Positions 47,100-64,000 of a stretch of 64,000 nt of DNA are shown here, one piece after another. The translations under genes were made by a program, and so were the position numbers. Within the stretch, counting starts at the first letter, position 1; each line of letters opens with the position of its first letter. Below the pieces are notes generated by a model. That model had not been told where the DNA came from. It made no database searches and was given only the letters and a program-made list of their open reading frames with translations. The DNA is taken from positions 17,917 to 81,916 of the forward strand of contig JBEKET010000013.1 in NCBI GenBank assembly GCA_050013695.1, in the 5' to 3' direction. Source of the stretch: Terracidiphilus sp. (lineage in GTDB: Bacteria > Acidobacteriota > Terriglobia > Terriglobales > Acidobacteriaceae).

Positions 47100-47136
47100 A
47101 AGATTCTCGACTGGAAGTGAAAGTGGGTTGAAATCG

Positions 47137-48507: not shown

Positions 48508-48623
48508 GTCGCGGTGATCACTCCAGCCGTATCGAAAATCGAGATGCGGCTGCTGTGCCTCTTCAGAATGCTGATTTTATGTTTGCGTTATCATGATTCA
48601 TACGCCTTGGGAGCAATAGGGAA

Positions 48624-49745: not shown

Positions 49746-49861
49746 CCTCCAGCGCTCTAAAATGCCACAGAGGGCCGACGGAATTCAGAAGCTGTAGAGG
49801 CCAGTGCGGCGCGCGGGGCCAGCAAACCGATATTGCACTCTCATAATCAACTTGCGGTCGT

Positions 49862-51208: not shown

Positions 51209-51253
51209 CGCTTCTTCTCCAGGCAACGGGCTTTCCTCAGCCCGCAGTTTTCT

Positions 51254-52306: not shown

Positions 52307-52382
52307 TCTCCTATTGAGAGCGCTGTGCATACTCTTGATTCTTTCTCGTTGATCTGTTTCTGTCGATATACCGGATGCAGCC

Positions 52383-53228
52383 CTACTGCGCCGCAGGTGC
52401 CGTCTCGACCTGTTGCGCAACGTCCAGCACAATGCCTTCCGTGGCCATTCCGGTCGCGGGAAACAGCGCCTGTGCATCTCGAAGCATTCCATCGAGAAAT
52501 GTGTCGTTGTGATCCGGATCGTGATGGAAGAGCAGCAGGCGGCCAACTTCCGCGCCTTGAGCCGCCTGGGCCGCGTGGGCAAAACTGGAATGCCCCCACC
52601 CCACTTTGCCGGCATACTCTTCAGGCGTGTATTGCGCGTCCATCACCAGCAAATCCGCATGTTCCGCCACGCGAATCAGGCCCGCGTCGACTTCCGGATT
52701 GCCGTGCTCATGATCTGCGGCGTGCACCAGTACATGCCCGTTCGACTGCGCGCGATACCCCACTGCGCCCTGTGGATGGAAAAGAGGGAAGGCTTCCACC
52801 GCGATCGGTCCAGCCTGAAAAGGCTCGCCACATTCAATGTGCCGGAACTCTGTTCGGGATCCAGCCTCAGCGAAGGGCAGAGGAAAGAACGGATAATCCA
52901 TCTGGACCTCGATGAGGTTCCGCGCCTCATCGGCAGGACGATTCGTGTAGAACGTGATCTCCACGCCCGGCCGGAACAACGGTGCGAAATATGGCAGGCC
53001 CTGGATGTGGTCCCAATGAAAGTGCGTCAGCATGATATGAATGCGCGACACCTGGCGCTGCAAAAGCTCCTCACCCAATGCGCGAATGCCGCTGCCGCAG
53101 TCAATGACGACGGCCTCGTTTGCGCTGGCACAGCCAATCTCCAGGCAGGTCGTATTGCCGCCGTAGCGAAGCCGGTTCGCCTCCGGTGTTGGGATTGACC
53201 CGCGCACTCCCCAGAACCTCAGATTCAT
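52383..53228 (-). CDS. MBL-fold metallo-hydrolase (phosphodiesterase-like)
   Basis: LRFWGVRGSIP, YGGNTTC, DCGSG, THFHWDHIQG, DHE, GHS, FHHDP. ATG 53228. Confidence 0.88.
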   Translation of the reverse strand: MNLRFWGVRGSIPTPEANRLRYGGNTTCLEIGCASANEAVVIDCGSGIRALGEELLQRQVSRIHIMLTHFHWDHIQGLPYFAPLFRPGVEITFYTNRPADEARNLIEVQMDYPFFPLPFAEAGSRTEFRHIECGEPFQAGPIAVEAFPLFHPQGAVGYRAQSNGHVLVHAADHEHGNPEVDAGLIRVAEHADLLVMDAQYTPEEYAGKVGWGHSSFAHAAQAAQGAEVGRLLLFHHDPDHNDTFLDGMLRDAQALFPATGMATEGIVLDVAQQVETAPAAQ

Positions 53229-53580
53229 CGCGAACTTCTCTTTCGATCCAGAGATTGCTATTCGCTTTCGCCGGAAGCCATTCCGCCTGAGAGCAGTTGC
53301 CTCCCAGGCCCGCCCGCACGAAAGCCAATCACAGGCTCTAATGTATACGCTCGAAGGATGAGGAGTGGAGCATAAAGCATTCCGCGGCTGATGGACAAGG
53401 GTCTTGAAACGCAGGCGGCCGTCCGCCCGGATCGCCCGCCCAAAAAACTCTTCTCCCCTTTTCCTGTTCCATGGCGTTATCATGGGGCGTTACTCCCCCG
53501 GGAATGAACGAACAGGATGCGCCGCGGATTGTTTTGAGAGAGGTTACAGGCTGAACTCCCTACCGTGGCAGAGAGGTCAT

Positions 53581-54273
53581 ATGCGAAGACAACTGCTTTT
53601 GTTGGTCACGCTTTTCGGAGTGGCGTTGCCGGGGATCATGGCAGCGCAGGACTCCGCAGGTGTAAGCCTCATCTCGATTACGGTTGAGAAGAAGGCCGGC
53701 GACTGGGTCCAAACGGTCGATCCCAAGCATGTTTTTGCCGCGGGCGATACGGTGAGATTCCGGCTGAAACCCGCGGTGGATGGCTATCTCTACGTGCTGG
53801 ATCTAAATACTTCAGGGAAATACGACGTATTATTTCCGCGTCCTGAGACCGGCAACGACAACCGGATTGTGCATGGCCGCGAATACCTGATGCCGGCCAC
53901 GGACAATGGCTGGTTCGAGGTTTCCGGGCCGCCGGGATTTGAAAAGCTCTACTTCGTTCTCAGTCCCGCAACCCTGACCCTGGGGCAGTTACAGAGCCGC
54001 ACAGGCTCGCTGCCTCCGCAGGGAACCGCTCCTGCCACCATGACCCCGCGATGCAATGACGCAATCTTCAAGGCGCGCGGCGAATGCGTTGACGCGGGTG
54101 CGGGACCGAAAGCGGTTGCACCGGGAGAAACTCTGCCACGCGACCTGATCCAGGTGGAGAATCAGGCATCCCGGGACCTGAAGTTCACCAATAATGCGTC
54201 GGGCACTACGGTGACCAGCGGTACGCCGTTGTCGGGCCCTGTGGTGTACGAGTTCCTGCTTGCACACAAGTGA
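53581..54273 (+). CDS. Secreted DUF4384-like protein
   Basis: Signal peptide; F.AGD.VRFRL..AVDGYLYVL...G...VLFP, G.PGFEKLYFVLS pattern recognised as DUF4384-like. Confidence 0.7.
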   Translation: MRRQLLLLVTLFGVALPGIMAAQDSAGVSLISITVEKKAGDWVQTVDPKHVFAAGDTVRFRLKPAVDGYLYVLDLNTSGKYDVLFPRPETGNDNRIVHGREYLMPATDNGWFEVSGPPGFEKLYFVLSPATLTLGQLQSRTGSLPPQGTAPATMTPRCNDAIFKARGECVDAGAGPKAVAPGETLPRDLIQVENQASRDLKFTNNASGTTVTSGTPLSGPVVYEFLLAHK

Positions 54274-54309
54274 TCAACCTGAAGAAAAGCATCAATTGGG
54301 GCTCGAGTT

Positions 54310-56424
54310 ATGAATCGTAGATGCATCCAACTCCTGGCTGCCTTCGCGTTGTGGGCCGGTCCCGCGCTCGTGGCGCAAACTGCCGCGCCGCCGCAAACCA
54401 CCGCGCCGGATCAGAATCGCGACCTCACCTTCAAAAAGGAAGGGGCCGCTCCCGCGCCTACAACCACCGTGCATATTCCGCGCAGCTACGCGCTGGTCAT
54501 CGGCATTTCGAAATACAAAAACCTGCCCCCGGATGCGCAGTTGCAATTCCCAAATCAAGATGCCGAATCCGTCTATACGGTGCTGATCAGTCCCGAGGGC
54601 GGCCAGTTTCCCGCGGAGAACGTGCATAAGCTGATCGACAGCCAGGCGACACTCGCGAATATCCAGCACGAACTCGAGACATGGCTGCCGTCGGTCACTC
54701 ATCCCGAGGACCGCGTGCTGATCTACTTCGCCGGCCATGGATTTGTTTCGAATGGAACTGCGTACATCGCGCCGCACGACATCGATCTCAAAAACATTTC
54801 GGGGACGGCTTATCCCATGGAGACGCTTGGCAAGGATATCGGCGCCCGAATCAATGGCAAGTGGAAAGTGCTGATCACCGACTCCTGCCACTCTGGCGCA
54901 ATCACTCCGGAGGCCGATCGCTCAACTGTGAACCGTACCCTGCTCGATCTTGATAAGTCTCTCTTCTCGATTACCGCCAGCCGCGATCGCGAACAGAGCT
55001 TTGAGAGCGATAAGTGGGGTGGCGGGCATGGCATCTTCACCTATTACGTTGTGAAGGGCTTGGAGGGCGAGGCCGACACCAATGGCGACGGCATTGTCAG
55101 CGCGGATGAACTGGCTGAGTACGTTCATACCAACGTTCGCGACGCAACCAATGCCGCGCAGAATCCGACATCGGAACGCGGCAGCTTCGATCCCAACATG
55201 TTACTGGCCTACAATCCCACCCATGTAACTGCTGCTAACTTGCCGCCGCCCAAATACGGCACGCTGGTGATTGAAACCAACATGGACGGCGTTGAGGTAT
55301 TCGTCGACGGACAGAGCGTGGGCGTTGTGAATAAGGCTGCGGCGCTGCGTTTGCCCGGCATCTCCCCCGGCGCGCACACCGTCCAGGCAGTCCATCTGGG
55401 CTACGAGCCCGACGGTCCGCGCCAGGAGGAAGTGTATCCGGGCCAGGAGACGACGGTGACCGTGCGCATCCTGATTGCGCGCAATCGCAACCATGCGGCC
55501 GTCGAACACTTCAATAAGGGCCTCGAGTTTTACAACAAGGGTTTTGAGCAGAATTACCGCATAGCCGCGGCGGAGTTTGAATCGGCGCTGGCCATCGACC
55601 CCAAGTACAGCCAGGCGGCGCTTTATGCCGGCCGCGCCTACAATGCCCTCTACGAAGACAAGAAGTCGCTTGAGTATTTCAAGGAAGCGATCACCATCGA
55701 TCCGGATTATCTTGAGGCTCGCTCCAGCTACGCCGGCGCTTTGCTGGATGCGGGCGACATGGATGAGGCAATTCGGCAATTGAACGTAGTAACCCAGCGC
55801 GATCCAAACAGCGGCATGGCCTTTTATCTGCTTTCGCAGGCCTTTGCGCGCAAGAACGATTACGACGACGCAATTCAGGCCGCGCGTCAGGCCATTCAGT
55901 TAACTCCAGGCAACGCTGAAGCGCACTTCTGGCTGGCCGAATCGCTGCGCCAGAAAAATCTGACCCCCGAAGCAGAAATGCAGTACAACCAATATCTGGC
56001 TCTCTCCAACTTCGACAGCGGCATGGCCGGAAAACTCAGCTACTATCTCGGCGGCTATCTGTTGGGCTACGGCGTAAAAAAGCGCGCGGCGCAAACCGAC
56101 ATCTGGAAGCAGTTGCGCGGACAGGCGAACACCGGTCTCTGCGACTGCGAATATCTGCAGAAGAAACTCGATTCAGCCATTCGTTATTGTCAAACCGCGC
56201 TGACCTTCACGCCCAATGACCTGTTTACCAACTACCGGCTCGGCATCATCTATTCGAAGCAATACAACCAGTCGGGAAGCGTAGCGCTGCTGGCAGCGGC
56301 ACGCAAACATTTTGAAAGCGTGATCGAACAGAACCCCGACGCGAATGAAGCGGGTTATTCCCGCAAATATGTGCAGAACATCGATGCCGTCCTCGCGCAG
56401 CAGTCTTCCGTCAGTCACCCATGA
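54310..56424 (+). CDS. Secreted caspase-family (peptidase C14, metacaspase-like) protease + PEGA + TPR
   Basis: Signal peptide; YALVIGISKY, YFAGHG (His 54736), TDSCHSG (Cys 54886), HGIFTYYV; PEGA (GVEVFVDG); TPRs. Confidence 0.88.
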   Translation: MNRRCIQLLAAFALWAGPALVAQTAAPPQTTAPDQNRDLTFKKEGAAPAPTTTVHIPRSYALVIGISKYKNLPPDAQLQFPNQDAESVYTVLISPEGGQFPAENVHKLIDSQATLANIQHELETWLPSVTHPEDRVLIYFAGHGFVSNGTAYIAPHDIDLKNISGTAYPMETLGKDIGARINGKWKVLITDSCHSGAITPEADRSTVNRTLLDLDKSLFSITASRDREQSFESDKWGGGHGIFTYYVVKGLEGEADTNGDGIVSADELAEYVHTNVRDATNAAQNPTSERGSFDPNMLLAYNPTHVTAANLPPPKYGTLVIETNMDGVEVFVDGQSVGVVNKAAALRLPGISPGAHTVQAVHLGYEPDGPRQEEVYPGQETTVTVRILIARNRNHAAVEHFNKGLEFYNKGFEQNYRIAAAEFESALAIDPKYSQAALYAGRAYNALYEDKKSLEYFKEAITIDPDYLEARSSYAGALLDAGDMDEAIRQLNVVTQRDPNSGMAFYLLSQAFARKNDYDDAIQAARQAIQLTPGNAEAHFWLAESLRQKNLTPEAEMQYNQYLALSNFDSGMAGKLSYYLGGYLLGYGVKKRAAQTDIWKQLRGQANTGLCDCEYLQKKLDSAIRYCQTALTFTPNDLFTNYRLGIIYSKQYNQSGSVALLAAARKHFESVIEQNPDANEAGYSRKYVQNIDAVLAQQSSVSHP

Positions 56425-58427
56425 TTTCCCCAAGCATGATGTCACCAGCCATAACGCGCCAATCATCCATCATGCGCCGCTTGCCGGACCGCCTCATTGT
56501 GGCCGCGGTTGTAGCCCTGGGTCTGACTTTCCTGGTGTCAATGCTGGAACGCTGGACTCCCTACGGCGACCTCACCAACTGGACATACGATTTTCTCGTC
56601 AACCACGGCAGATACGCTCGCCCATCGCAGGACATTGTGTTTGTCGATTTTGACGATGCAACGTTTTCAAAGATCAACAAATATCCGATTCCACGCTCCA
56701 CCGTCGCCGATGTCGTCGATCGCGTGGGTAAGGCGGCGCCTGCCATCATCGGCCTCGATATCTTCCTTTCTGAACCGCGCAACGCCGATGAAGATGCGGC
56801 GATGCAGCGCGCGCTCAGCGCGGCGGGCAACGTGGTGATTGGAGGACAGGCGGCAACTGGGCAGCTTCCGGCCGTGTTGCCCATGCCCATGTTCTGCCAG
56901 CCTGAAAATCCCGCGCTGGCCACCGGATTCTGCGCGGAAGGCAAGCCCGGTGCATTCGGTTATGCGGCCGTCAACATGCCGTTTGACAGCGACGGTTATG
57001 TGCGCGACGCCGAACTTTTCGCGTGGAACAAGCAAAAGGCCGAAAGCTTTCCCGTGTTTCTAGCTGAGGAGTATCTGGCGCAAGTCGATCCGCAGTGCAA
57101 GAACTGCACCTTGCAACCGCTGAATAAAAACGCCGCGCAGTTTCGCGGCCACCGCGTTCCTTTTCACGATCTCGGTGCAGGTACATTTCGGATAGGCGAT
57201 TGGTCGCCGCATCCGGCACAGCACATCTCGGCGTGGGATGTTTTAACTGGTACAGTCGATCCTGCCCGCCTGCGCAACAAGCTGGTTCTGATTGGCCAAG
57301 GCAGCGATGCGGCGCGCGACCGCGACCTTTCGCCGCTCTTCCGCGTTCGCCAGTCCGACGGCAAGCGCGAGCAGATCGCCGGCACCGAGCTTCATGCGGC
57401 GGCCATCGCAACGCTGCTCGATGGCAACGCGATCGGCGAGGTCCCGCTTTGGATTCAGGGCACGGTCAACTTCATCCTGCTTGCCGCGGCTACGTGGGTG
57501 TTTACGCGCCTCCGGCTCAGGATGGCCTTCGCCCTGGCAGCGGTCTTCATCCCGGTCATTTATGCCGCCGCACAGGTCCTGTTTACTGCATATCATCTTT
57601 GGTTTCCCTATCTCGAAACCATTCTCGGCGTGGCAGCGGCTCTGCCCTGCGGCGTGGCATGGCAATACGTGAAGGTGAACCTGTTGCGCTCTGAGACCGA
57701 GCAGCAGCGGAAGCAGTTGATGGAAATGTTCTCGCGCTACGTCGATCCCCAGGTCGCGCACGCCATCTGGCTCCGTCGCGACGAGGTGAGCCTCGAAGGC
57801 GACGAACGCATCGCCACCGTGCTCTTCAGCGACATCCGCAACTTCACCGGCATCACGGCGGGAAAGCCTTCGCGAACCGTGCTGCGCTGGCTCAACCGTT
57901 ACTTCACCGCAATGGATGAAGTGATCCGCGCGCATGACGGTTTCCTCAACAAATTCATCGGTGACGGACTTCTGGTGGTGTACGGCGTGCCCCTCTCGCA
58001 AGGGGTGAAGGTCGATGCCTGCAACTCGGTCCGCAGCGCCCTGGCCATGCTCAAACGCGTCGAGGAACTGAATGCGGAACGCCCCGACGACGAGGACTGT
58101 CCCGACCTCAGGATCGGCGTCGGAATTCATACCGGAACGCTGACCAGCGGAAGTGTCGGCTCCCTCAACCGCCTCGAGTATTCCGTTATTGGAGAAACCG
58201 TCAACCTCGCGTCCCGGTTGGAGAGCCTCAACAAGGAATTCGGTACCGAGATTATTATTTCTCAGGGCACATATGAGAGGGTGAAAGATCAGATGCCCGG
58301 AATTTACCCGCTGGGCGCGACCGCGGTAAGAGGATTTGACGAGCCGATTACGATTTACGGTATAGGACCTAGAAAACAAACAAAGGCCTCTGCGGTAGAG
58401 GCAGAGCGATCGGAGATGCTGGCATGA
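56421..58427 (+). CDS. CHASE2 sensor + class III adenylate cyclase
   Basis: IVFVDFDD, IIGLDIFL, NKLVLIG, GTELHA; TMs; VLFSDIRNFT, NKFIGDG, EYSVIGETVNLASRLE (Lys + Ser/Thr adenine-specifying residues, Asn/Arg present). Confidence 0.92.
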   Translation: MISPSMMSPAITRQSSIMRRLPDRLIVAAVVALGLTFLVSMLERWTPYGDLTNWTYDFLVNHGRYARPSQDIVFVDFDDATFSKINKYPIPRSTVADVVDRVGKAAPAIIGLDIFLSEPRNADEDAAMQRALSAAGNVVIGGQAATGQLPAVLPMPMFCQPENPALATGFCAEGKPGAFGYAAVNMPFDSDGYVRDAELFAWNKQKAESFPVFLAEEYLAQVDPQCKNCTLQPLNKNAAQFRGHRVPFHDLGAGTFRIGDWSPHPAQHISAWDVLTGTVDPARLRNKLVLIGQGSDAARDRDLSPLFRVRQSDGKREQIAGTELHAAAIATLLDGNAIGEVPLWIQGTVNFILLAAATWVFTRLRLRMAFALAAVFIPVIYAAAQVLFTAYHLWFPYLETILGVAAALPCGVAWQYVKVNLLRSETEQQRKQLMEMFSRYVDPQVAHAIWLRRDEVSLEGDERIATVLFSDIRNFTGITAGKPSRTVLRWLNRYFTAMDEVIRAHDGFLNKFIGDGLLVVYGVPLSQGVKVDACNSVRSALAMLKRVEELNAERPDDEDCPDLRIGVGIHTGTLTSGSVGSLNRLEYSVIGETVNLASRLESLNKEFGTEIIISQGTYERVKDQMPGIYPLGATAVRGFDEPITIYGIGPRKQTKASAVEAERSEMLA

Positions 58428-59179
58428 CGAACAGGACTAAATTGATGGTTGCAATCCTGGTGGCAGGATGCGCGGCGCTGGCTGGCGCGCAGGGTACCGG
58501 GCAAACAAAGCCGCAGGCGCCGCCGCCAACCCCGCCCCAGCAACAGAATCAGGACCAGCAGGCCCGTCCGCGCCGGGTCCTGGTCAAACTCGATGGCTTC
58601 GAGATGGCTCCCGCGCGGGCAACCGCGAACCAGATCGGAGGAGCGTCGCGCGGCCAGGGCCAGAAGCTCGTCCTCTATGCGCCGCACAAGGCCAAAATCT
58701 ACACCCTCACTCCTTCGTTCTCATGGAAGGGCGATCCCACCGCGGGATACAAATTCCACATCCAGGAAATCACAGGCACATTTGCCTGGGATCGAGATGT
58801 GACTGGAACCAGCCTCGCCTATCCGGCAGACGCGCCGCCGCTTTCTCCGGGCGGCACCTATCTGTGGAAGGTCGTCCCGGTCTCGCCGTTGCTCGGGCCT
58901 CCTCCACCGGCAGCCATGCTTGTCGTGCTGGGCGGGCCGGAACGCGAGCAACTGGATACGGCGATAAGCCAGCTTCAGGGCTCCGGTTCCGATCTGGATA
59001 TGGCGCGCGCCCGGCTCTTCTTCAACCAGCGACTCTGGTATGACGCTGTGATGACCTGTTCGGATCTCATCGCCAAGTTTCCCAATCGGTCTGACCTCCA
59101 CGAGATGCGTGCAGTGCTCTACTACCAACTGCCGGAAACTGAAGCGCTTGCGGATGCCGACTTAGCCCGGCCAAACTAG
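58424..59179 (+). CDS. Secreted DUF928-like protein
   Basis: Signal peptide, Pro/Gln linker, IGGASRG motif, PLSPGGTYLW.V, helical end with LWYDAV; ATGA-coupled to the cyclase. Confidence 0.55.
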   Translation: MTNRTKLMVAILVAGCAALAGAQGTGQTKPQAPPPTPPQQQNQDQQARPRRVLVKLDGFEMAPARATANQIGGASRGQGQKLVLYAPHKAKIYTLTPSFSWKGDPTAGYKFHIQEITGTFAWDRDVTGTSLAYPADAPPLSPGGTYLWKVVPVSPLLGPPPPAAMLVVLGGPEREQLDTAISQLQGSGSDLDMARARLFFNQRLWYDAVMTCSDLIAKFPNRSDLHEMRAVLYYQLPETEALADADLARPN

Positions 59180-59220
59180 GGAGTTCTTAGTTAATAAATA
59201 ACCCTCCCTTGAATGTGTGT

Positions 59221-59251
59221 GGTGGCAATTCCGTGCGGAGAAATTGCCACC
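59221..59251 (+). terminator. Stem-loop after the caspase/cyclase operon (terminator-like)
   Basis: GGTGGCAATT...AATTGCCACC perfect 10-bp stem followed only by CTTT (weak U-tract). Confidence 0.5.
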
Positions 59252-59319
59252 CTTTGCGGCGTTCCCATTTCGCGTTGTCCATTCGTCTGAGCGATCGGCG
59301 GATTTTCATTGAAGTCCGC

Positions 59320-59358
59320 AAAAAAACATTGACTTAGGCGCAAAGGGCGCGATACAGT
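59320..59358 (+). promoter_or_regulatory. Sigma70-type promoter for the lipoprotein/adhesin operon
   Basis: A-tract, TTGACT (59329)-18 bp-TACAGT (59353). Confidence 0.65.
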
Positions 59359-59429
59359 TCGGGCATTCTCTTCGACGCTTCTCCGCTCCTGAATGTCCCC
59401 CCTCCTTCCGGAGTGAATTCTAAGAACCG

Positions 59430-60473
59430 GTGATCCCTGTGACACAGCGTTCATACGAACAGCGCATAGCTCAATTTGCCGCTCTCGCGTCTCTCGGAGT
59501 CGTGCTCGCATCCGGTTGCGGATCGGTATCTCCCAATTCGCTGACCAAAGGACCGTCGGGCGACAACACGCCCACTGGAGCTGCCGTTTCCAGCGGCGCG
59601 CAGTTGGGCCTGATCTGGAACCCGGTCGATTCGACGCTTCGAACTCTGGGTGGCGTACCAGGTTCAACCCAACTTGGCCCTCCCCTGTTTCCTGCGGGAT
59701 CCTACGCCGCGGGAGCGTTTTCAAGCCCGTCGCAGACCGCGCTGCTGATCGACCCCAAGGGCAATCTCCAGGTCATGGTCCTCCCTTCGACCCAGCCGCA
59801 GACCGTGACGGGCAATCTCTCTCCCGCGTCCGTCATAGCCTTTGCTCCGCGCGGGGCCTATGCGGTGGTATTTGCTCCGGGATCGACATCTGTTCTGGTG
59901 GTTGGCGGATTGCCGCAGGCGCCTGCCGCGAATGTGGTTACAGCGGCATCGGCGGTTCAAAGCGCGTCCATCAGCGACGCGGGAACGTTGTTGCTGGCAA
60001 CAGGCGCAGGCAGTGGCAGCGTCTCGATTACATCAACAACGGCAAGCGGAACGCGCTCCAACCTTGCTACCCTGGGAGGCTTCGGCGGCATGAGCTTCAT
60101 CGCAGGATCGGAAGATTCTCTGATCGCGGATTCGGCGGCCAATACGCTGGCGCGCTATCACAACGCGGTCGCCACGACGCTGGCGACGCATGCCAATGGC
60201 CTCAACCAGCCTTTCGCTGTGGCAGCGTCCATGGATGGGCACTGGGCCGTCACGGCCGACCAGGCTGATACCGTGGTGCTGCGCATCGATCTCACCGGCG
60301 CTGCTTCCCCGGCTCAATCCACCTGTGCCTGCACTCCCACACAGTTGTCGGCGCTGAATGGCAACGCAGTTTTTGAACTCGCGGCTCCGGCTGCGACACC
60401 GGGATGGATGATCGAAGCCGACGGTCCCACCTCGCGCGTCCTGTTTATTCCGCCGGCACGGGGTGGGCAATGA
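59430..60473 (+). CDS. Hypothetical lipoprotein, probable beta-propeller
   Basis: GTG start; hydrophobic signal ending LASG-C; repeated short beta units (IAFAPRG, ASISDAG, AASMDG); stop overlaps adhesin ATG. Confidence 0.65.
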   Translation: MIPVTQRSYEQRIAQFAALASLGVVLASGCGSVSPNSLTKGPSGDNTPTGAAVSSGAQLGLIWNPVDSTLRTLGGVPGSTQLGPPLFPAGSYAAGAFSSPSQTALLIDPKGNLQVMVLPSTQPQTVTGNLSPASVIAFAPRGAYAVVFAPGSTSVLVVGGLPQAPAANVVTAASAVQSASISDAGTLLLATGAGSGSVSITSTTASGTRSNLATLGGFGGMSFIAGSEDSLIADSAANTLARYHNAVATTLATHANGLNQPFAVAASMDGHWAVTADQADTVVLRIDLTGAASPAQSTCACTPTQLSALNGNAVFELAAPAATPGWMIEADGPTSRVLFIPPARGGQ

Positions 60474-63400
60474 AGCGCCGTCTCTCCAGTTTGGTTCTCA
60501 TCGGCATTGCGGCAATTCTTACCGCAGGATTCCCCGCCTCGCTGCGCGCTCAAACGGACGGTGGCGGGGAACCGTTCACCTCGTTCGCCATTCAAGCCTC
60601 GTCCAATCCCGTTGTCGTCGGGCAATACGTATCGCTGACCGTTACTCCCACAGGGAACTACGGCACTCCTACGGGCTCGGTCGAATTCTACGTTTCCTCG
60701 AGTTCCAACACCTGCACGTATAGCACGTTGATCGGCACGACGGCGGGCTCCGAGGGAACCTATATCTTGAATTACTATGCCTCCCAAACGGGAACTATTC
60801 CCATTTGCGCGGCCTACATCCCCAGCGACGGCGACGCCTACGCGGCGGCCACGACCCCGGTTTACCTGCTCAGTGTCGTGATATCGGCTTCGTTCACCAC
60901 GTTCAGCATTCAAGCCTATCCCAATCCAGTTAACCTGGGCCAAGCCACAACGCTCACCGCGACGATCACCGGGAACTCCGGCGCACCCGCAGGCCAGGTC
61001 GAATTCTATGTCTCCAGCGGGACTGACGGCTGCTCGATTAGCTCCGTGATCGGTACGACAACCGGCTCCAACGGAGTTTATACCGAGAGTTACACCCCAT
61101 CTCAAGTAGGATCTTTTTCCATCTGCGCTCAATACATCCCCACCGACGGCGATGTTTACCCCTCGGCCACGGCTGGAATTTACACGCTCAATGTAGCGGG
61201 GACAGCTCCGTTCACCGTGTTCGACATTGGAGCCTCACCCAACCCCATCCCCGACGGGTTCATGAGTACGCTGACCGCGTATCTGGTCGGGAATTACGGC
61301 GTCCCCACCGGACAGGTTGAGTTTTACTCCTCCAACAGCGCCACTGCCTGCTCAGAGGGCTACTTCTTCGGCGAGGTACCGGTTAGCGCAAGCGGTGTCG
61401 CGACCCTGAATACCTCTTTCTACAACGCGGGAACCTGGTATATTTGCGCCCAATACGTCCCTGGCCAGAACGACCCATACGCCTCGGCTACGGCAGGAAT
61501 TTACCTGGTCAATGTAATGCAGCCCACCCTCTTCACGGTGAGCGTACCGGCTGCCGTCCTCCAGGGTTCGCAGATCCCCTTCACCTTTGGCATTACCACC
61601 CCATACGGGCAGGTCCCGCCCACTGGCACAATCACCCTCGAAGATCCTAACAACGATTATGCAGTCATCGGCACGACAACCGTAAGCAATGGCGTCGTTT
61701 CTCCTCCAACCATTACTGCCACGCTCACTGGGAACAGCTACTACGCGGTTTACAGCGGAGACAACAACTACGAGTCGCAGTCTGTCTACGGCACAGTGCT
61801 GTACGAAAATGCCCTTAGCGCGATCAGCCCCGCTGCCGTTACTGTCGGGTCTCCCACTACTAACTTCACGCTCACCGGCGCTGGATTCAACGCAAATTCG
61901 GTTGTGTACCTCGGGTCCGGCGACGGACAGGTCACTCTGCCCGTCAACAGCTTCACTCCCACCCAGATTCAGACCACCATCACCGCCAACAACCTGCTGA
62001 TTGCGGGTGAACTGAGCATCTCCGTGGTGACCGGACCCATAACCGGCGGCCCCATCACGTTGCAGGTTTACGCTCCCTACACTGATACGGCGGGAGTCTC
62101 GACAGCAAATCCCACGTCGATTCCATACGGATACACAATCTCGACTAACTTCAACGGCACCGTCACACGCGGCGTGCCGGCAACAGATGCCGCAGTTCCC
62201 GCCGGCCAGGTCACATTCTCCCTCACCGGCACCGGCGCACAGTCAGGCTACAGCGCCACGCTCGGTACAGCCGCGCTTGCCCAGGTCACTACGCCGGGGA
62301 CCTACCTGTCTCCATTCACCGAGCCGATTGACACAAACGGAAGCGCGAAGCTGATCTCGGCCGATCTCAATGGCGATGGGTACGCCGATGTCATTGGTAT
62401 GCCCGGCATCTACTATCCCAATGCCAACTACGGAGATTATGCGGCAGGACCATACCTCCAGGTTATGCTCAGCACCGGCGCCGACGGCCTCCAGACGGAG
62501 CAGCAGGTCTTCACCGGATGCCTTGCCCAGGATTTCGCCGTCGGCGACATCAATGGAGATGGAATTCCGGATCTGGTTGTGGTGTGCACCAGCAATGGAA
62601 TTGCAAGCGGGCCCCTCAACAACCTGCTGGCCTATTACATGCTGGGCAACGGGGACGGAACCTTCCAGGCGCCTGTTCAATTTGGAAATAATTCGGGCAT
62701 CAACTATCCAACCAATATTGCCCTGGGACAATTCAACGGCGACGGATATCTTGACATCGCGGTCATCGACGGTGCGGATGGATACTTGCAGGTCATCAGT
62801 CCCTTTCAGAATTCGTATGGGCCATATTCGTATTTCGACACCTCGAATGGCTCCGTGCAGACCGCCGGCGCCGCCGACTTCAACCAGGATGGCCTGAGCG
62901 ATATCGTGCTCGAGGAGTACAACTATCCCTACAACTACAACCAGTACAGCAACGGAGCGGTTCTCGTTCTAATCAGCCAGGGCGACTACAACGGGTTCTA
63001 TGTCCTGAGCGAGACGCAGTTCACTGCCACCACGTACTGGATGCAGAGCATGACCATCTCGGATGTGAACGGCGATGGGTATCCCGATGTCGCCATTGCC
63101 GATTTTGGCCAGTACTACAGTGACGGATCCGATAACGGCAACATTCTGATTTTTGAGAATGACCAGCAAGGCGAATTGCCATTGACCTTCACCTATTCGG
63201 GGAACAACGACGGTGCGCTCTCTTTTGCCGGCGCGGTTGTCGGCATACCCTTCCCGACCATTGGACAGCCTGCCTCGGGAGCCGCGGCTGCGCAAGGCTG
63301 GAATCTTGCCTATTCGGGCTTCGGCTCCGATAACAACATCTGGGTTCAAGAGTTGCAGCGGCAGAGTGCGCAGAATTGGACCATCGTCTCCTCGTTCGAC

Positions 63401-64000
63401 ACTCTTAATGGTACTTACAACACAGAGGGCGGGCCTATTCCGGGATTGCTTGTTACCGGCGACATGAATGGCGACGGTTACCTGGACTTCGTCACCAACG
63501 CCTTCGTCTGCATAGGAGACTGCAATCAAGACACGTGGATCCTCCAGCCCTGGTACTACAGCAATGACGCGCAGGCTACCACCACAGGCTCCAGTCTTTC
63601 CACTCCGCCTTTACCCGGCACCTACACGCTGAGCATGACCTACCCGGGCAATCAGCTCTACCAGCCGAACCCGCTCGGCTCCAATCCCGCTGTCAACACG
63701 CAGATCACAATCACAGAGGCCACGCCGACCGGCAACCTCGCAGTCAGCCCCACGGGTACGGGATCTCCCGCAGCCTATCCCTATGGAACCCCTCTGACAT
63801 TTACCGCGACCGTTATCGGAGTAACAAATGGCGTAGCGCCCGGCGGTACCGTCACCTTCTACGACAACGACGGTACGCTCGGGACCGGAAATCTGAGTTC
63901 GGACGGCGGATGCTTCTCAACGGCAACGTTCACCACCACTCAGCTCCAACCCGGAATCAACAACATTTCAGTCTCCTATAACGGCGATCCCAACAACAAT
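60470..64000 (+). CDS. Large secreted adhesin-like protein with Ig-like (Big_3/IPT) domains and FG-GAP/VCBS repeats; 3-prime truncated by the window edge
   Basis: Absent from the ORF track (no stop in window). Translated by hand at start, repeats and end: MKRRLSSLVLIGIAAILTAGFPASLRAQ signal; ADLNGDGYAD, GDINGDGIPD, GQFNGDGYLD, ADFNQDGLSD, SDVNGDGYPD, GDMNGDGYLD; ends in frame as NISVSYNGDPNNN. Confidence 0.9.
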   Translation, partial: MKRRLSSLVLIGIAAILTAGFPASLRAQTDGGGEPFTSFAIQASSNPVVVGQYVSLTVTPTGNYGTPTGSVEFYVSSSSNTCTYSTLIGTTAGSEGTYILNYYASQTGTIPICAAYIPSDGDAYAAATTPVYLLSVVISASFTTFSIQAYPNPVNLGQATTLTATITGNSGAPAGQVEFYVSSGTDGCSISSVIGTTTGSNGVYTESYTPSQVGSFSICAQYIPTDGDVYPSATAGIYTLNVAGTAPFTVFDIGASPNPIPDGFMSTLTAYLVGNYGVPTGQVEFYSSNSATACSEGYFFGEVPVSASGVATLNTSFYNAGTWYICAQYVPGQNDPYASATAGIYLVNVMQPTLFTVSVPAAVLQGSQIPFTFGITTPYGQVPPTGTITLEDPNNDYAVIGTTTVSNGVVSPPTITATLTGNSYYAVYSGDNNYESQSVYGTVLYENALSAISPAAVTVGSPTTNFTLTGAGFNANSVVYLGSGDGQVTLPVNSFTPTQIQTTITANNLLIAGELSISVVTGPITGGPITLQVYAPYTDTAGVSTANPTSIPYGYTISTNFNGTVTRGVPATDAAVPAGQVTFSLTGTGAQSGYSATLGTAALAQVTTPGTYLSPFTEPIDTNGSAKLISADLNGDGYADVIGMPGIYYPNANYGDYAAGPYLQVMLSTGADGLQTEQQVFTGCLAQDFAVGDINGDGIPDLVVVCTSNGIASGPLNNLLAYYMLGNGDGTFQAPVQFGNNSGINYPTNIALGQFNGDGYLDIAVIDGADGYLQVISPFQNSYGPYSYFDTSNGSVQTAGAADFNQDGLSDIVLEEYNYPYNYNQYSNGAVLVLISQGDYNGFYVLSETQFTATTYWMQSMTISDVNGDGYPDVAIADFGQYYSDGSDNGNILIFENDQQGELPLTFTYSGNNDGALSFAGAVVGIPFPTIGQPASGAAAAQGWNLAYSGFGSDNNIWVQELQRQSAQNWTIVSSFDTLNGTYNTEGGPIPGLLVTGDMNGDGYLDFVTNAFVCIGDCNQDTWILQPWYYSNDAQATTTGSSLSTPPLPGTYTLSMTYPGNQLYQPNPLGSNPAVNTQITITEATPTGNLAVSPTGTGSPAAYPYGTPLTFTATVIGVTNGVAPGGTVTFYDNDGTLGTGNLSSDGGCFSTATFTTTQLQPGINNISVSYNGDPNNN
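60575..61528 (+). repeat. Three tandem 318-bp (106-aa) Ig-like repeats, each with a Cys pair
   Basis: Units start TTCACC at 60575, 60893, 61211; shared FT.F.I.A.PNP...GQVEFY.S...C...ICA.Y.P...D.Y..AT. Confidence 0.9.

What the first reader, a model, noticed from the sequence alone, without database searches (positions are those of the whole stretch)
52383..59179. Candidate undescribed signalling system: secreted caspase + DUF4384-like + CHASE2 adenylate cyclase + DUF928-like, with a divergent MBL hydrolase
Seen: four co-oriented genes with caspase/cyclase/DUF928-like joined by ATGA overlaps; three products carry signal peptides and the fourth has a periplasmic CHASE2 domain; both caspase dyad residues and the cyclase catalytic residues are intact; an MBL hydrolase is head-to-head. 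Known: CHASE2 and DUF928 genes cluster with CHAT proteases (also caspase clan CD) in cyanobacteria, and DUF4384 occurs fused to C14 caspases; CHASE2 ligands are poorly defined. Inference: an envelope proteolysis-to-cAMP relay where the caspase processes a partner that switches the cyclase, reset by the MBL enzyme. Could serve surface sensing, development or defence.
Basis: partly seen in the sequence, partly recalled or inferred. Interest (0 to 1): 0.85.

Follow-up and report, generated by a model that had tools for sequence, protein, structure and literature searches.

The report
Caspase-linked CHASE2 cyclase sensing locus
A peat-soil acidobacterium carries a conserved five-gene block that joins a membrane receptor making cyclic AMP, its secreted partner protein, a likely cyclic-nucleotide-degrading enzyme and a secreted caspase-like protease pair, and the same receptor–partner–protease trio recurs in cyanobacteria, which may explain how the uncharacterised CHASE2 sensor domain is switched.

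Summary
All five genes, both ATGA overlaps, the export signals and every catalytic residue are present.

The block is two older modules joined in one Terracidiphilus-like lineage.
- **Module 1:** the CHASE2 adenylate cyclase and the secreted DUF928 protein. They were adjacent in every locus that carried a DUF928 gene, mostly with a 4-base overlap. A cytoplasmic MBL phosphodiesterase accompanies them in two different arrangements. Its orthologues elsewhere sit beside another cyclase, cNMP-binding proteins or GAF proteins.
- **Module 2:** the secreted DUF4384 protein and a secreted EF-hand orthocaspase with Ig-like and TPR domains. The two were paired wherever the upstream sequence was present. 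In most Acidobacteria this pair has no cyclase and often sits by a receptor Ser/Thr kinase.

All cyclase-linked caspases form one clade, so the many conserved copies probably count as one or two events. However, on cyanobacterial plasmids DUF928 lies beside CHASE2 receptors (8 of 11 loci) and exported TPR-CHAT proteases (9 of 11).

I therefore favour an exported protease, DUF928 and CHASE2 sensing trio with interchangeable outputs, here cAMP reset by the MBL enzyme. Proteolytic switching is inferred, not shown. No searchable paper describes the trio.

The parts
52383..53228 (-). Cytoplasmic MBL-fold phosphodiesterase (281 aa, no signal peptide). The HxHxDH motif lies at 53007-53024. It is the likely cyclic-nucleotide phosphodiesterase of the system.
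   Evidence: - Pfam Lactamase_B_2 scores 73.6 bits.
- Weak NCBIfam matches to the cyclic-nucleotide-degrading phosphodiesterase, RNase Z and PhnP models, all far below their cut-offs.
- Nearest PDB sequences are RNase Z 2cbn and the metal-dependent hydrolases 6kns and 1zkp.
- HxHxDH is invariant in 38 of 38 relatives.
- It is linked to cyclases in three arrangements, and its orthologues sit next to cNMP_binding or GAF proteins.
53229..53580 (.). 352-bp divergent intergenic region between the MBL gene and the DUF4384 gene. This is where promoters would be expected; none was identified.
   Evidence: - Sequence read.
- The sigma-70 consensus scan found nothing in this region.
- There were no Rfam matches.
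53581..54273 (+). Secreted DUF4384 protein (230 aa). It has a signal peptide, a DUF4384 beta-sandwich (about 53734-53967) and a conserved C-terminal region with two Cys (PRCxDxxFKARGEC). It is the constant partner of the caspase.
   Evidence: - Pfam PF14326 scores 55.6 bits.
- It lies immediately upstream of the caspase in every locus where the upstream region is present.
- Conservation profile over 77 sequences.
- DUF4384 is reported as the C-terminal domain of some Csx30 proteins, which are substrates of the Csx29 CHAT protease, and as often fused to proteases (bioRxiv 10.1101/2022.08.17.504292).
54310..56424 (+). Secreted orthocaspase (704 aa).
- Signal peptide: 54310-54375.
- C14 domain: 54484-55179, with H143 at 54736-54738 and C193 at 54886-54888.
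- EF-hand loop: 55075-55110.
- Ig-like PEGA domain: 55258-55464.
- TPR repeats: 55483-56379.
   Evidence: - Pfam hits for C14, PEGA and TPR.
- The catalytic dyad is invariant in 75 of 75 homologues, and the EF-hand loop is invariant.
- EF-hand proteins are the best PDB sequence matches to the caspase domain, on this loop.
- The AF2 model matches MALT1 caspase-Ig3 and metacaspases best.
- At least 779 homologues were found, and the best 120 are at least 62% identical.
56421..58427 (+). Receptor-type class III adenylate cyclase (668 aa).
- First TM segment: 56481-56537.
- Periplasmic CHASE2 domain: 56529-57479.
- Hydrophobic (TM) region: about 57453-57695.
- Catalytic domain: 57813-58352.
   Evidence: - Pfam CHASE2 scores 135.5 bits and Guanylate_cyc 89.4 bits.
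- Hydropathy and the sequence of the TM region.
- Metal-binding Asp, Lys/Ser specificity pair, Asn and Arg are invariant in 43 of 43 relatives.
- The start overlaps the caspase stop by ATGA. A 4-base overlap is seen in 18 of 29 loci and an 11-bp gap in 7.
58424..59179 (+). Secreted DUF928 protein (251 aa).
- Signal peptide, with a possible lipobox VAGC: 58424-58492.
- Disordered Pro/Gln-rich region carrying the invariant motif NQIGGASRG: 58628-58654.
- FN3-like beta-sandwich: 58697-58927.
- TPR-like helical domain: 58934-59167.

It is the constant partner of the CHASE2 domain.
   Evidence: - Pfam PF06051 scores 34.3 bits.
- In the AF2 model residues 1-91 are disordered and the rest is folded. 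Foldseek finds the MtxA C-terminal domain 4z29 and FN3 domains.
- It lies next to the cyclase in every locus carrying a DUF928 gene, with a 4-base overlap in 42 of 54.
- The motif is invariant in 45 of 45 acidobacterial sequences.
- It is family-wide as [GA]-x-[ST]-R: present in 11 cyanobacterial DUF928 proteins, and in 56 of 82 distant representatives against 5% of shuffled sequences.
59430..64000 (+). Conserved neighbours that may belong to the same functional neighbourhood.
- A lipoprotein-like 347-aa protein of unknown family: 59430-60473.
- An ATGA-overlapping giant secreted FG-GAP/Ig-like protein that starts at 60470 and runs off the window.
   Evidence: - No Pfam or NCBIfam hit for the 347-aa protein.
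- The giant orthologue in L001 carries FG-GAP, Big_3_5 and ASH/HYDIN-like Ig domains.
- Start codon and signal peptide read.
- This group lies beside the cyclase pair where the caspase is absent (L014, L016, L019, L020). It lies beside the caspase pair where the cyclase is absent (L067-L081, including L071).

Best explanation
**What it is.** A composite envelope-sensing locus built from two modules.

**Module 1: a cAMP make-and-break unit.**
- A CHASE2 receptor adenylate cyclase has a periplasmic sensor domain that works with a dedicated secreted partner, DUF928.
- DUF928 has a disordered N-terminal arm carrying an invariant Gly-Gly-Ala-Ser-Arg motif, followed by an FN3-like domain and a TPR-like domain.
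- A cytoplasmic phosphodiesterase of the RNase Z / PhnP / Apyc1-like MBL group removes the cyclic nucleotide.

**Module 2: a periplasmic protease pair.**
- A Ca2+-binding (EF-hand), metacaspase-like Cys protease carries Ig-like and TPR domains that probably capture substrate.
- Its constant partner is a secreted DUF4384 protein.

**How the modules came together.**
- In the Terracidiphilus-like lineage the two modules were joined into one tightly packed, probably co-translated gene string.
- In cyanobacteria, exported TPR-CHAT proteases, which are non-orthologous members of the same protease clan (CD), sit beside DUF928 and CHASE2 receptors with other outputs.
- The most likely working unit is therefore exported clan-CD protease plus DUF928 plus CHASE2.

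**Proposed mechanism.**
1. The protease, gated by periplasmic Ca2+ and by the DUF4384 protein, acts on DUF928. The candidate cleavage site is after the invariant Arg76.
2. This changes how DUF928 engages the CHASE2 domain and so sets cyclase activity.
3. The MBL enzyme resets the signal.

**Shown:** gene content, order and overlaps; export signals; intact catalytic residues; recurrent gene linkage within and between phyla.

**Inferred:** every physical interaction, the cleavage and its site, the sign of regulation, the nucleotide made and the nucleotide hydrolysed.
For: 1. **Cyclase and DUF928 belong together.**
   - They are adjacent in 34 of 34 species-level loci.
   - The 4-base overlap is present in 42 of 54 loci.
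2. **DUF928 tracks the CHASE2 sensor, not the output.**
   - On cyanobacterial plasmids it sits beside CHASE2 proteins whose cytoplasmic parts are a histidine kinase, CHAT, AAA_35 or nothing recognisable (8 of 11 loci).
3. **Exported clan-CD proteases recur.**
   - CHAT genes lie within 6 kb of DUF928 in 9 of 11 cyanobacterial loci.
   - All the CHAT N-termini examined look like signal peptides.
   - One is a TPS-TPR-CHAT fusion of 1756 aa.
   - In the window the caspase has a signal peptide, as its homologues do.
4. **The caspase pair elsewhere accompanies another transmembrane signalling enzyme.**
   - This is a Ser/Thr kinase fused to an FGE-sulfatase domain, presumably periplasmic. The cyclase looks like an analogous replacement.
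5. **The DUF928 motif behaves like a docking or cleavage peptide.**
   - It is invariant inside a region predicted to be disordered.
   - It is conserved family-wide.
   - Orthocaspases cleave after basic residues (PMC6426788 abstract).
   - The caspase model is closest to MALT1, which from my own knowledge is Arg-specific, and to metacaspases.
6. **The MBL enzyme is linked to cyclic-nucleotide genes in many contexts.**
   - Divergent and upstream in this configuration; co-directional and downstream in 11 other species.
   - Overlapping a Reg_prop cyclase, with a cNMP-binding MscS-type channel nearby, in Bryobacterales.
   - Behind cNMP_binding plus AI-2E_transport genes.
   - Behind GAF-SpoIIE genes.
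7. **Block boundary.** Synteny breaks just beyond the MBL gene.
8. **Precedent.** The CHASE2 cyclases of S. meliloti respond to a protein signal through an envelope accessory protein (PMC13001267).
Against: - **One lineage.** All cyclase-linked caspases fall in one clade with a nested loss, so conservation of the caspase-cyclase junction is largely inheritance.
- **The cyclase pair often stands alone.** It lacks a neighbouring caspase in 24 of 34 species.
- **The caspase pair usually stands alone.**
  - The family is very large (at least 779 hits) and highly conserved, about 67% identical to a Bryobacteraceae homologue.
  - Most members have no CHASE2 or DUF928 nearby. That argues for a more general envelope role.
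- **A shared neighbour.** Both modules are separately adjacent to the same lipoprotein and giant FG-GAP/Ig gene group. Their adjacency could be a by-product of that shared neighbour.
- **The motif does not need a nearby protease.** The DUF928 motif is equally invariant in genomes with no adjacent protease.
- **Missing evidence.**
  - No cNMP-binding effector was found in the window.
  - No transcript data are available.
  - No complex model could be computed.
- **MBL score.** The window's MBL protein does not reach any curated phosphodiesterase cut-off.
Confidence: 0.5

Rival explanations
1. Two unrelated systems that are neighbours by descent. The cyclase, DUF928 and MBL genes form a self-contained cAMP sensing unit. 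The DUF4384 protein and the caspase-TPR form a general acidobacterial envelope protease pair, for protein maturation or quality control. They lie side by side in one lineage without functional coupling.
For: - The two modules are distributed independently.
- The cyclase-linked caspases form a single clade with a nested loss.
- The caspase family is abundant and highly conserved, and usually has other neighbours: a Ser/Thr kinase with FGE-sulfatase, then VWA and TssC-like genes.
Against: - The caspase-cyclase junction is tight: a 4-base overlap in 18 of 29 loci and an 11-bp gap in 7.
- The junction has persisted while DUF928 diverged to 45% identity (L021).
- Its flanks differ between L021 (lipoprotein gene upstream, on the opposite strand) and the main clade (MBL upstream, lipoprotein downstream). 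In the cyclase tree L021 groups away from the main clade. Both points hint at two separate origins.
- Non-orthologous exported CHAT proteases accompany DUF928 and CHASE2 in cyanobacteria.
Confidence: 0.27
2. A conflict, defence or kin-recognition system.
- The exported protease is a weapon or a signal aimed at other cells or invaders.
- DUF928 is a bait substrate guarded by the CHASE2 receptor.
- cAMP, or in cyanobacteria CHAT, TIR or STAND modules, triggers a defensive or suicidal response.
For: - The cyanobacterial trios are on plasmids, next to TIR, NB-ARC, AAA_35, trypco2 and two-partner-secretion genes.
- Caspase-CHASE2 fusions are described within counter-invader systems (PMC8195603).
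- The caspase domain resembles the EACC1-associated type: NCBIfam 89 bits, below the 140 cut-off.
- The cyclase matches the PycC models of PADLOC, and the MBL's orthologues match Pfam Anti-Pycsar_Apyc1.
Against: - In Acidobacteria the genes are chromosomal and vertically inherited, and the caspase pair is very conserved rather than diversifying.
- No effector, STAND NTPase or TIR gene lies next to the window's block.
- The PADLOC hits are generic family-level matches, and DUF928, the DUF4384 protein and the 347-aa protein have none.
- The Lys/Ser specificity pair points to an adenylate cyclase, by comparison with class III cyclases from my own knowledge, not to a pyrimidine cyclase.
Confidence: 0.12
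3. The functional centre is the neighbouring surface-protein group: the 347-aa lipoprotein, the giant FG-GAP/Ig protein and a protein of about 220 aa. The caspase matures or sheds the giant protein. The CHASE2/DUF928 pair senses its state and so regulates surface adhesion or a matrix through cAMP.
For: - This group lies beside the caspase pair in sister clades that lack the cyclase.
- It lies beside the cyclase pair in lineages that lack the caspase.
- It lies downstream of both in the window.
- The FN3-like domain of DUF928 also occurs as tandem repeats, up to about 35 copies, in giant proteins.
Against: - The group is absent from 18 of 34 cyclase/DUF928 loci.
- It is absent from some caspase loci (L041, L042).
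- A 250-bp gap containing a promoter-like site separates it from DUF928.
- Nothing similar accompanies the cyanobacterial trios.
Confidence: 0.08

Closest known systems
Sinorhizobium meliloti CHASE2 adenylate cyclases CyaD1, CyaD2 and CyaK with the outer-membrane protein NsrA, the Crp-like regulator Clr and the phosphodiesterase SpdA
   Same: - Receptor-type class III cyclase with a periplasmic CHASE2 domain.
- The signal is a protein (plant uL2) and needs an envelope accessory protein (PMC13001267).
- From my own knowledge, a phosphodiesterase gene (spdA) lies in the same S. meliloti locus.
   Different: [quoted passage not shown]
- No protease is involved.
- No Crp-like regulator was found in the window.
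- The phosphodiesterase here has an MBL fold.
Cyanobacterial gene trio of a CHASE2 receptor, DUF928 and an exported TPR-CHAT protease (seen only in genome annotation; no functional study found)
   Same: - DUF928 lies next to a CHASE2 receptor and to an exported TPR-containing clan-CD protease (7 of 11 plasmid loci).
- DUF928 has the same architecture and the same [GA]-x-[ST]-R motif.
   Different: - The protease is CHAT (C50-like), not C14, and is often associated with two-partner secretion.
- CHASE2 outputs there are a histidine kinase, CHAT, AAA_35 or none, not a cyclase.
- There is no DUF4384 protein and no MBL gene.
- The loci are plasmid-borne and sit next to conflict-type genes.
Caspase-CHASE2 and EACC2-caspase-CHASE2 fusion proteins (Trichodesmium metacaspase; Kaur et al. 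2021)
   Same: A C14 protease and a CHASE2 sensor occur in one functional unit (PMC3501461, PMC2853523, PMC8195603).
   Different: - In the fusions the caspase is on the cytoplasmic side and serves as the output of CHASE2.
- Here the caspase is a separate exported protein in the same compartment as the sensor domain. It would therefore be an input, not an output.
Craspase (type III-E CRISPR): the TPR-CHAT protease Csx29 cleaving Csx30
   Same: A TPR-bearing clan-CD protease works with a partner or substrate that in one Csx30 group carries a DUF4384 C-terminal domain (bioRxiv 10.1101/2022.08.17.504292).
   Different: - Craspase is cytoplasmic and RNA-guided, and its output is sigma-factor control.
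- No CRISPR genes are present here.
MBL-fold cyclic-nucleotide phosphodiesterases (phage Apyc1, Bacillus YhfI-like proteins, NCBIfam NF041851) and the related RNase Z / PhnP phosphodiesterases
   Same: - Same fold and HxHxDH metal site.
- Weak family matches, and orthologues match Pfam Anti-Pycsar_Apyc1.
- Genomic linkage to cyclic-nucleotide genes.
   Different: - The scores are far below every curated cut-off (54 bits against 400 for NF041851).
- The substrate is untested.
- This is a host chromosomal gene, not a phage counter-defence gene.
FecR-CHASE2 pairs of Proteobacteria
   Same: A CHASE2 receptor, including cyclases encoded next to a Crp-family regulator, has a dedicated small partner gene immediately adjacent.
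   Different: - The partner there is a FecR-domain protein encoded upstream, not a DUF928 protein downstream.
- No protease is present.

Membership tests
CHASE2 receptor class III adenylate cyclase | CHASE2 domain above the Pfam gathering score, flanked by transmembrane segments | tested here: met
   CHASE2 scores 135.5 bits against 26.3. One TM segment precedes the domain and a hydrophobic stretch of about 80 residues follows it.
CHASE2 receptor class III adenylate cyclase | Class III catalytic residues: two metal-binding Asp, the substrate Lys, and the transition-state Asn and Arg | tested here: met
   D471, D515, K511, N595 and R599 are present and invariant in 43 of 43 relatives. The second specificity position is Ser588; class IIIa and IIIb cyclases have Asp or Thr there (my own knowledge).
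CHASE2 receptor class III adenylate cyclase | Makes 3',5'-cAMP in response to an extracytoplasmic signal | not testable with these tools
   Needs an enzyme assay or cya complementation.
DUF928 (PF06051) | Pfam gathering score reached | tested here: met
   34.3 bits against 26, but only model positions 72-167 of 184 are matched. 92 of the 97 homologues found carry a precomputed PF06051 hit.
DUF928 (PF06051) | Family architecture: signal peptide, [GA]-x-[ST]-R motif, 'L-x-A-P ... P-x-F-x-W' beta domain, 'WYDA' helical C-terminus | tested here: met
   Alignment with 11 bona fide cyanobacterial DUF928 proteins. The Calothrix member scores E = 7.9e-31 against PF06051.
DUF4384 (PF14326) | Pfam gathering score reached | tested here: met
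   55.6 bits against 27.
Peptidase C14 (orthocaspase / metacaspase-like) | C14 domain with the His-Cys catalytic dyad | tested here: met
   58.9 bits against 21.4. H143 (AGHG) and C193 (D-S/A-C-H-S-G) are invariant in 75 of 75 homologues.
Peptidase C14 (orthocaspase / metacaspase-like) | Caspase-hemoglobinase fold | tested here: met
   The AF2 model (pLDDT 64 overall, 74-94 in the core) matches MALT1 caspase-Ig3, GSU0716 and metacaspases 4 and 9 at E = 1e-10 to 1e-6.
Peptidase C14 (orthocaspase / metacaspase-like) | Cleavage after Arg or Lys | not testable with these tools
   Inferred only. The evidence is the DSCHSG motif, the invariant D84 and D226 (motif resemblance to the metacaspase S1-pocket Asp residues, from memory), and the MALT1/metacaspase-like fold.
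EACC1-associated caspase (NCBIfam NF047832) | Curated score cut-off | tested here: not met
   89.1 bits against a cut-off of 140. No EACC1 partner was identified.
Cyanobacterial CHASE2-DUF928-CHAT trio | DUF928 gene adjacent to a CHASE2 receptor gene | tested here: met
   4-base overlap in the window and adjacency in 34 of 34 acidobacterial loci. The cyanobacterial figure is 8 of 11.
Cyanobacterial CHASE2-DUF928-CHAT trio | Adjacent exported TPR protease of the CHAT family | tested here: not met
   The protease here is exported and TPR-bearing, but its catalytic domain is Peptidase_C14, not CHAT. It is the same clan (CD) but a different family.
MBL-fold cyclic-nucleotide phosphodiesterase (NF041851 / Apyc1-like) | Curated family score | tested here: not met
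   NF041851 scores 54.3 bits against a cut-off of 400. Pfam Anti-Pycsar_Apyc1 was not reported for the window protein at E <= 0.1, although it is precomputed for many orthologues.
MBL-fold cyclic-nucleotide phosphodiesterase (NF041851 / Apyc1-like) | Intact binuclear metal site | tested here: met
   HxHxDH is invariant in 38 of 38 relatives.
MBL-fold cyclic-nucleotide phosphodiesterase (NF041851 / Apyc1-like) | Hydrolyses 3',5'-cyclic nucleotides | not testable with these tools
   Only genomic linkage to cyclases and to cNMP_binding or GAF proteins supports this.
Pycsar anti-phage system | PycC cyclase with an adjacent cNMP-activated effector | tested here: not met
   The cyclase gives only a generic PycC match (84 bits). 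No cNMP-binding effector was found in the window.
Craspase-like protease-substrate pair | Association with Cas7-11 and a CRISPR array | tested here: not met
   No such genes appear in the ORF map of the window. The resemblance is limited to a TPR clan-CD protease with a DUF4384 partner.

The most novel reading that the evidence does not exclude
Exported clan-CD protease plus DUF928 plus CHASE2 is a general extracytoplasmic sensing device that has not been recognised before.
- It is present in at least Acidobacteria and Cyanobacteria.
- DUF928 acts as a pro-ligand or bait. Its disordered arm, with the conserved [GA]-x-[ST]-R motif, is cut or captured by the protease, and the result is read by the CHASE2 domain.
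- CHASE2 then drives interchangeable outputs: cAMP, histidine kinase, CHAT or AAA modules.

If so, CHASE2 would be a sensor of proteolysis rather than of a small molecule. That would give the domain its first general ligand logic.
Probability: 0.3. Interest if true: 0.85.

Novelty: new variant of a known kind. Interest (0 to 1): 0.66.

Why it matters
- **An open question becomes testable.** CHASE2 is a widespread bacterial sensor domain. Its signals are unknown apart from one protein-signal case in Sinorhizobium.
- **A defined set of parts.**
  - An invariant secreted partner, DUF928, with a short conserved Arg-containing motif.
  - A recurrent exported caspase-clan protease.
  - Here, a cAMP output that is easy to assay, with a matching phosphodiesterase.
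- **A tractable experiment.** Five genes can be reconstituted in an E. coli cya mutant.
- **Periplasmic caspases.** It would also give a function to periplasmic caspase homologues. These are abundant in soil Acidobacteria and are usually discussed only in terms of cell death.
- **A phosphodiesterase clade.** It would assign a large clade of MBL proteins, annotated as PhnP-like, to cyclic-nucleotide turnover.

Tried and rejected
**Searches that returned nothing useful**
- An exact-sequence look-up of the window's cyclase, and of the Granulicella sibirica caspase homologue, found no contig.
- The literature search for CHASE2 / CHAT / FecR was swamped by metallurgy and parasitology papers.
- 'DUF928' occurs in one paper only, and no paper holds both 'CHASE2' and 'CHAT domain'.
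- No RNA sequencing run holds the locus, so co-transcription could not be tested. DNA runs show only that the window comes from peat metagenomes.
- The promoter and terminator consensus scan was at background level.
- There were no Rfam matches in 52000-60600.
- PADLOC gave only generic caspase and PycC matches.
- A search of the window for cNMP-binding proteins, using four query proteins, found none.

**Considered and dropped**
- The first cyanobacterial plasmid hits (L123-L125) do not pass Pfam DUF928, and their kinases carry TPR repeats, not CHASE2. They are kept only as distant relatives. Bona fide DUF928 loci were then found starting from the Calothrix protein.
- I considered that the 'ASR' tripeptide shared by DUF928, the DUF4384 protein and the caspase might be a common cleavage site. 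I dropped the caspase copy as evidence, because it lies in the conserved loop after strand 5, which in metacaspases forms the S1 pocket (motif comparison from memory).
- PDB sequence searches for the caspase domain returned only EF-hand proteins.
- Profile searches of the PDB with DUF928 found only TPR proteins, matching its C-terminus.

Full report
**Observation**

The window holds the five genes as described.
- An MBL-fold hydrolase lies on the minus strand at 52383-53228, taking MNLRFWGV as the start.
- On the plus strand lie a DUF4384 protein (53581-54273), a caspase with PEGA and TPR domains (54310-56424), a CHASE2 class III cyclase (56421-58427) and a DUF928 protein (58424-59179).

All defining Pfam domains exceed their gathering scores. 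The two ATGA overlaps were read directly from the sequence.

The DUF4384 protein, the caspase and DUF928 begin with signal-peptide-like segments. The cyclase has one TM segment, then CHASE2, then a hydrophobic block, then the catalytic domain.

The catalytic residues are present and invariant in relatives.
- Caspase H143 and C193: 75 of 75.
- Cyclase D471, K511, D515, S588, N595 and R599: 43 of 43.
- MBL HxHxDH: 38 of 38.

The names given to the nearest DUF928 proteins place the organism in or near Terracidiphilus (Acidobacteriaceae). The DNA occurs in peat, bog and soil metagenomes.

**Is the gene set a unit?**

A scan of one genome per species with a DUF928 profile returned 34 loci, all acidobacterial. 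I annotated them with the window's proteins.
- The cyclase and DUF928 are adjacent in 34 of 34.
- Over all loci fetched, the DUF928 ORF start overlaps the cyclase stop by 4 bases in 42 of 54.

Four configurations occur.
- **A.** MBL(-) | DUF4384, caspase, cyclase, DUF928, 347-aa protein. Nine species have this order. L021 has the same order but no MBL.
- **B.** Cyclase, DUF928, 347-aa protein. Five species.
- **C.** Cyclase and DUF928 only. Seven species.
- **D.** Cyclase, DUF928, MBL(+). Eleven species, plus L003-L006, L141 and L142.

The cyclase-DUF928 pair is therefore obligatory. The MBL is a frequent partner, in two different arrangements. The caspase pair is an addition in one lineage.

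In configuration A the genes beyond the MBL differ widely: 34 loci show at least 15 different contexts. The conserved block therefore really starts at the MBL gene.

**The caspase pair on its own**

The caspase with its Ig-like and TPR domains belongs to a very large and unusually conserved acidobacterial family. At least 779 hits were found, and the best 120 are at least 62% identical, including Bryobacteraceae members.

In 80 metagenome loci, a DUF4384 gene precedes the caspase wherever the upstream sequence is present. The context depends on how close the caspase is to the window's.
- At 84% identity or more, the locus is usually configuration A.
- Four close relatives (82-89% identical: L059, L061, L062, L065) have no cyclase downstream.
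- More distant clades have the 347-aa lipoprotein gene upstream on the opposite strand.
- Others have a receptor Ser/Thr kinase with an FGE-sulfatase domain and a second DUF4384 gene.
- In L041, L042 and L109, VWA and TssC-like genes follow the caspase.

An NJ tree puts every cyclase-linked caspase in one clade. L021 is basal, and the four cyclase-less loci are nested within it. Most of the conservation is therefore inheritance from one event.

The cyclase tree places L021 away from configuration A, and its flanks differ. A second, independent junction is therefore possible. The trees carry no support values, so this is not established.

**Independent evidence from another phylum**

A tblastn search of plasmids with a Calothrix DUF928 protein (Pfam E = 7.9e-31) found cyanobacterial DUF928 genes. 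I inspected 11 annotated loci.
- A CHASE2 protein is adjacent in 8.
- A CHAT protease lies within 6 kb in 9.
- Both are present in 7.

The CHASE2 proteins there carry varied cytoplasmic parts: a histidine kinase, an N-terminal CHAT domain, AAA_35, or no recognisable output.

The CHAT proteases carry TPR repeats and hydrophobic signal-like N-termini. One is a TPS-TPR-CHAT fusion of 1756 aa, and several lie next to two-partner-secretion genes.

So DUF928 follows the CHASE2 sensor domain whatever its output, and an exported TPR-bearing clan-CD protease accompanies them. The acidobacterial block is the same trio with a C14 protease in place of CHAT.

In proteobacterial plasmids the small partner of CHASE2 is instead a FecR-domain protein.

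**DUF928**

The AF2 model has three parts.
- Residues 1-91 are disordered.
- An FN3-like sandwich spans residues 92-168.
- A TPR-like helical domain spans residues 171-248.

The best structural match is the MtxA C-terminal domain, followed by FN3 domains.

DUF928 is the fastest-evolving of the five proteins. Yet NQIGGASR in the disordered arm is invariant in 45 of 45 acidobacterial sequences.

The motif generalises to [GA]-x-[ST]-R across the wider family.
- All 11 cyanobacterial DUF928 proteins have it.
- Among 82 distant full-length representatives, 56 match a strict pattern, against 5% of shuffled sequences. Most of the remainder carry near variants.

A conserved short motif in a disordered, exported arm suggests a docking or cleavage peptide.

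The same search found the FN3-like domain as tandem repeats in giant proteins.

**The caspase**

The model is closest to MALT1 (caspase plus an Ig domain) and to metacaspases. The active-site motif is D-S/A-C-H-S-G.

Orthocaspases cleave after basic residues (PMC6426788). An Arg-containing target is therefore plausible, but specificity was not tested.

A canonical EF-hand loop, DTNGDGIVSADE (residues 256-267), is invariant in 75 homologues. The best PDB sequence matches to the caspase domain are EF-hand proteins aligned on this loop. This suggests Ca2+ control.

**The MBL enzyme**

It belongs to the RNase Z / PhnP / YhfI / Apyc1 group of phosphodiesterases, but it lies far below every curated cut-off.

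The family is very large, and JGI names its members 'phosphoribosyl 1,2-cyclic phosphodiesterase'.

Orthologues at about 50% identity were examined in further contexts.
- In Bryobacterales the gene overlaps the end of a Reg_prop class III cyclase. A cNMP-binding MscS-type channel lies two genes away, and a GAF-SpoIIE protein is next door.
- In two other contexts it follows a small cNMP_binding protein and an AI-2E_transport protein.
- In another it follows a GAF-SpoIIE protein.

Together with configurations A and D, this is consistent evidence for a role in cyclic-nucleotide turnover. The substrate itself is untested.

**Mechanism proposed**

1. The exported, Ca2+-gated caspase, together with its DUF4384 partner, acts in the periplasm on DUF928. 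The candidate site is after Arg76.
2. DUF928 engages the CHASE2 domain and sets cyclase activity.
3. cAMP is made in the cytoplasm and removed by the MBL phosphodiesterase.

The receptor kinase with an FGE-sulfatase domain that accompanies the caspase pair elsewhere would be an analogous transmembrane partner.

Only gene linkage, export signals, intact catalytic sites and motif conservation are shown. All interactions are inferred.

**Arguments against coupling**

- The modules are distributed independently.
- The junction lies in a single clade.
- The DUF928 motif is equally invariant where no protease is adjacent.
- Both modules share another neighbour, the 347-aa lipoprotein and the giant FG-GAP/Ig protein.
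- No cNMP effector was found in the window.

**Comparison with what is known**

- **Closest studied system.** This is the S. meliloti set of CHASE2 cyclases, which sense a plant protein through the envelope protein NsrA.
- **Caspase-CHASE2 fusions.** These are known, but the caspase sits on the cytoplasmic side.
- **DUF4384.** It occurs as the C-terminal domain of some Csx30 substrates of the TPR-CHAT protease Csx29.
- **The trio itself.** I found no paper that describes the DUF928-CHASE2-protease trio. DUF928 is mentioned in a single paper, which only lists a Nostoc gene cluster.

**Verdict**

The locus is a new variant, with a C14 protease, a cyclase output and an MBL phosphodiesterase, of a trio that is visible in genome annotation but has not been studied functionally.

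Noticed in passing
window 59430-60473 and 60470-64000 (+): A lipoprotein-like 347-aa protein with no family match is followed, with an ATGA overlap, by a giant secreted FG-GAP/Ig-like protein that runs off the window. In relatives this group, plus a gene of about 220 aa, neighbours the cyclase pair alone (L014, L016, L019, L020). It also neighbours the caspase pair alone (L067-L081, including L071).
   Followed up: partly
window 55075-55110 (caspase residues 256-267): A canonical EF-hand Ca2+-binding loop, DTNGDGIVSADE, is embedded in the caspase domain between two helices. It is invariant in 75 homologues. EF-hand proteins are the best PDB sequence matches to the caspase domain.
   Followed up: partly
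L041 10114-18043, L042 10152-18052, L109 9867-13627: In Bryobacteraceae and other Acidobacteria the DUF4384-caspase pair is followed by a 314-aa protein of unknown family, a VWA protein, a TssC-like sheath protein and several small proteins. This looks like a contractile injection or secretion gene set.
   Followed up: no
L123 5443-16188, L124 3587-14578, L125 5398-14720: Plasmids of Leptolyngbya and Nostoc (including PCC 7120 pCC7120alpha) carry a conserved cluster: a STAND/NB-ARC ATPase, a Ser/Thr kinase with TPR repeats, a DUF928-like protein that fails the Pfam model, an exported TPR-CHAT protease and two-partner-secretion genes.
   Followed up: partly
L132 3077-5650, L135 3372-5774, L133 3610-5928, L130 6717-11987: Cyanobacterial CHASE2 receptors next to DUF928 carry N-terminal CHAT domains (Nostoc punctiforme, Picosynechococcus) or an AAA_35 domain (Planktothrix). 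Acaryochloris encodes a 1756-aa TPS-TPR-CHAT fusion next to DUF928.
   Followed up: partly
L127 4558-8226, L128 4542-7674: In proteobacterial plasmids a CHASE2 receptor is preceded by a FecR-domain protein. In Paroceanicella a Crp/Fnr regulator precedes that, giving the order Crp, FecR, CHASE2 cyclase.
   Followed up: no
L144 4137-6843, L145 4300-6849, L139/L140 4652-12801: Orthologues of the MBL protein (about 50% identical) sit in strings with cNMP-related genes. One string is a small cNMP_binding protein, an AI-2E_transport protein and the MBL. Another is a GAF-SpoIIE protein, the MBL, a Reg_prop cyclase and a cNMP-binding MscS-type channel. This suggests an unannotated clade of cyclic-nucleotide phosphodiesterases.
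   Followed up: partly
L007 5436-10744; L012 5896-9992; L018 5691-8037: In one MAG (L007) the DUF4384 and caspase genes read as a single ORF, and so do the cyclase and DUF928 genes. In two long-read MAGs (L012, L018) the caspase gene, and in L012 also the cyclase gene, is broken into several ORFs. These may be assembly errors or pseudogenes.
   Followed up: no
proteins P0338-P0342, P0347 and others: The FN3-like domain of DUF928 (profile positions about 73-160) occurs as 7 to 35 tandem copies in proteins of 1000-5000 aa.
   Followed up: no
window 52383-53483 (-) and 53404-54273 (+): Both mechanical ORFs extend well upstream of the likely starts, and the extensions overlap each other. Homologues and the signal peptide place the real starts at 53228 (MBL) and 53581 (DUF4384).
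   Followed up: yes
window 47128-52615: By eye only, the genes upstream of the block look like carbohydrate-use genes: a sugar transporter, a GH10-like protein, a fucosidase-like protein and a GH18-like protein. In relatives the genes immediately beyond the MBL differ widely; the GH10-like gene recurs only in the three closest loci (L007, L043, L054).
   Followed up: partly
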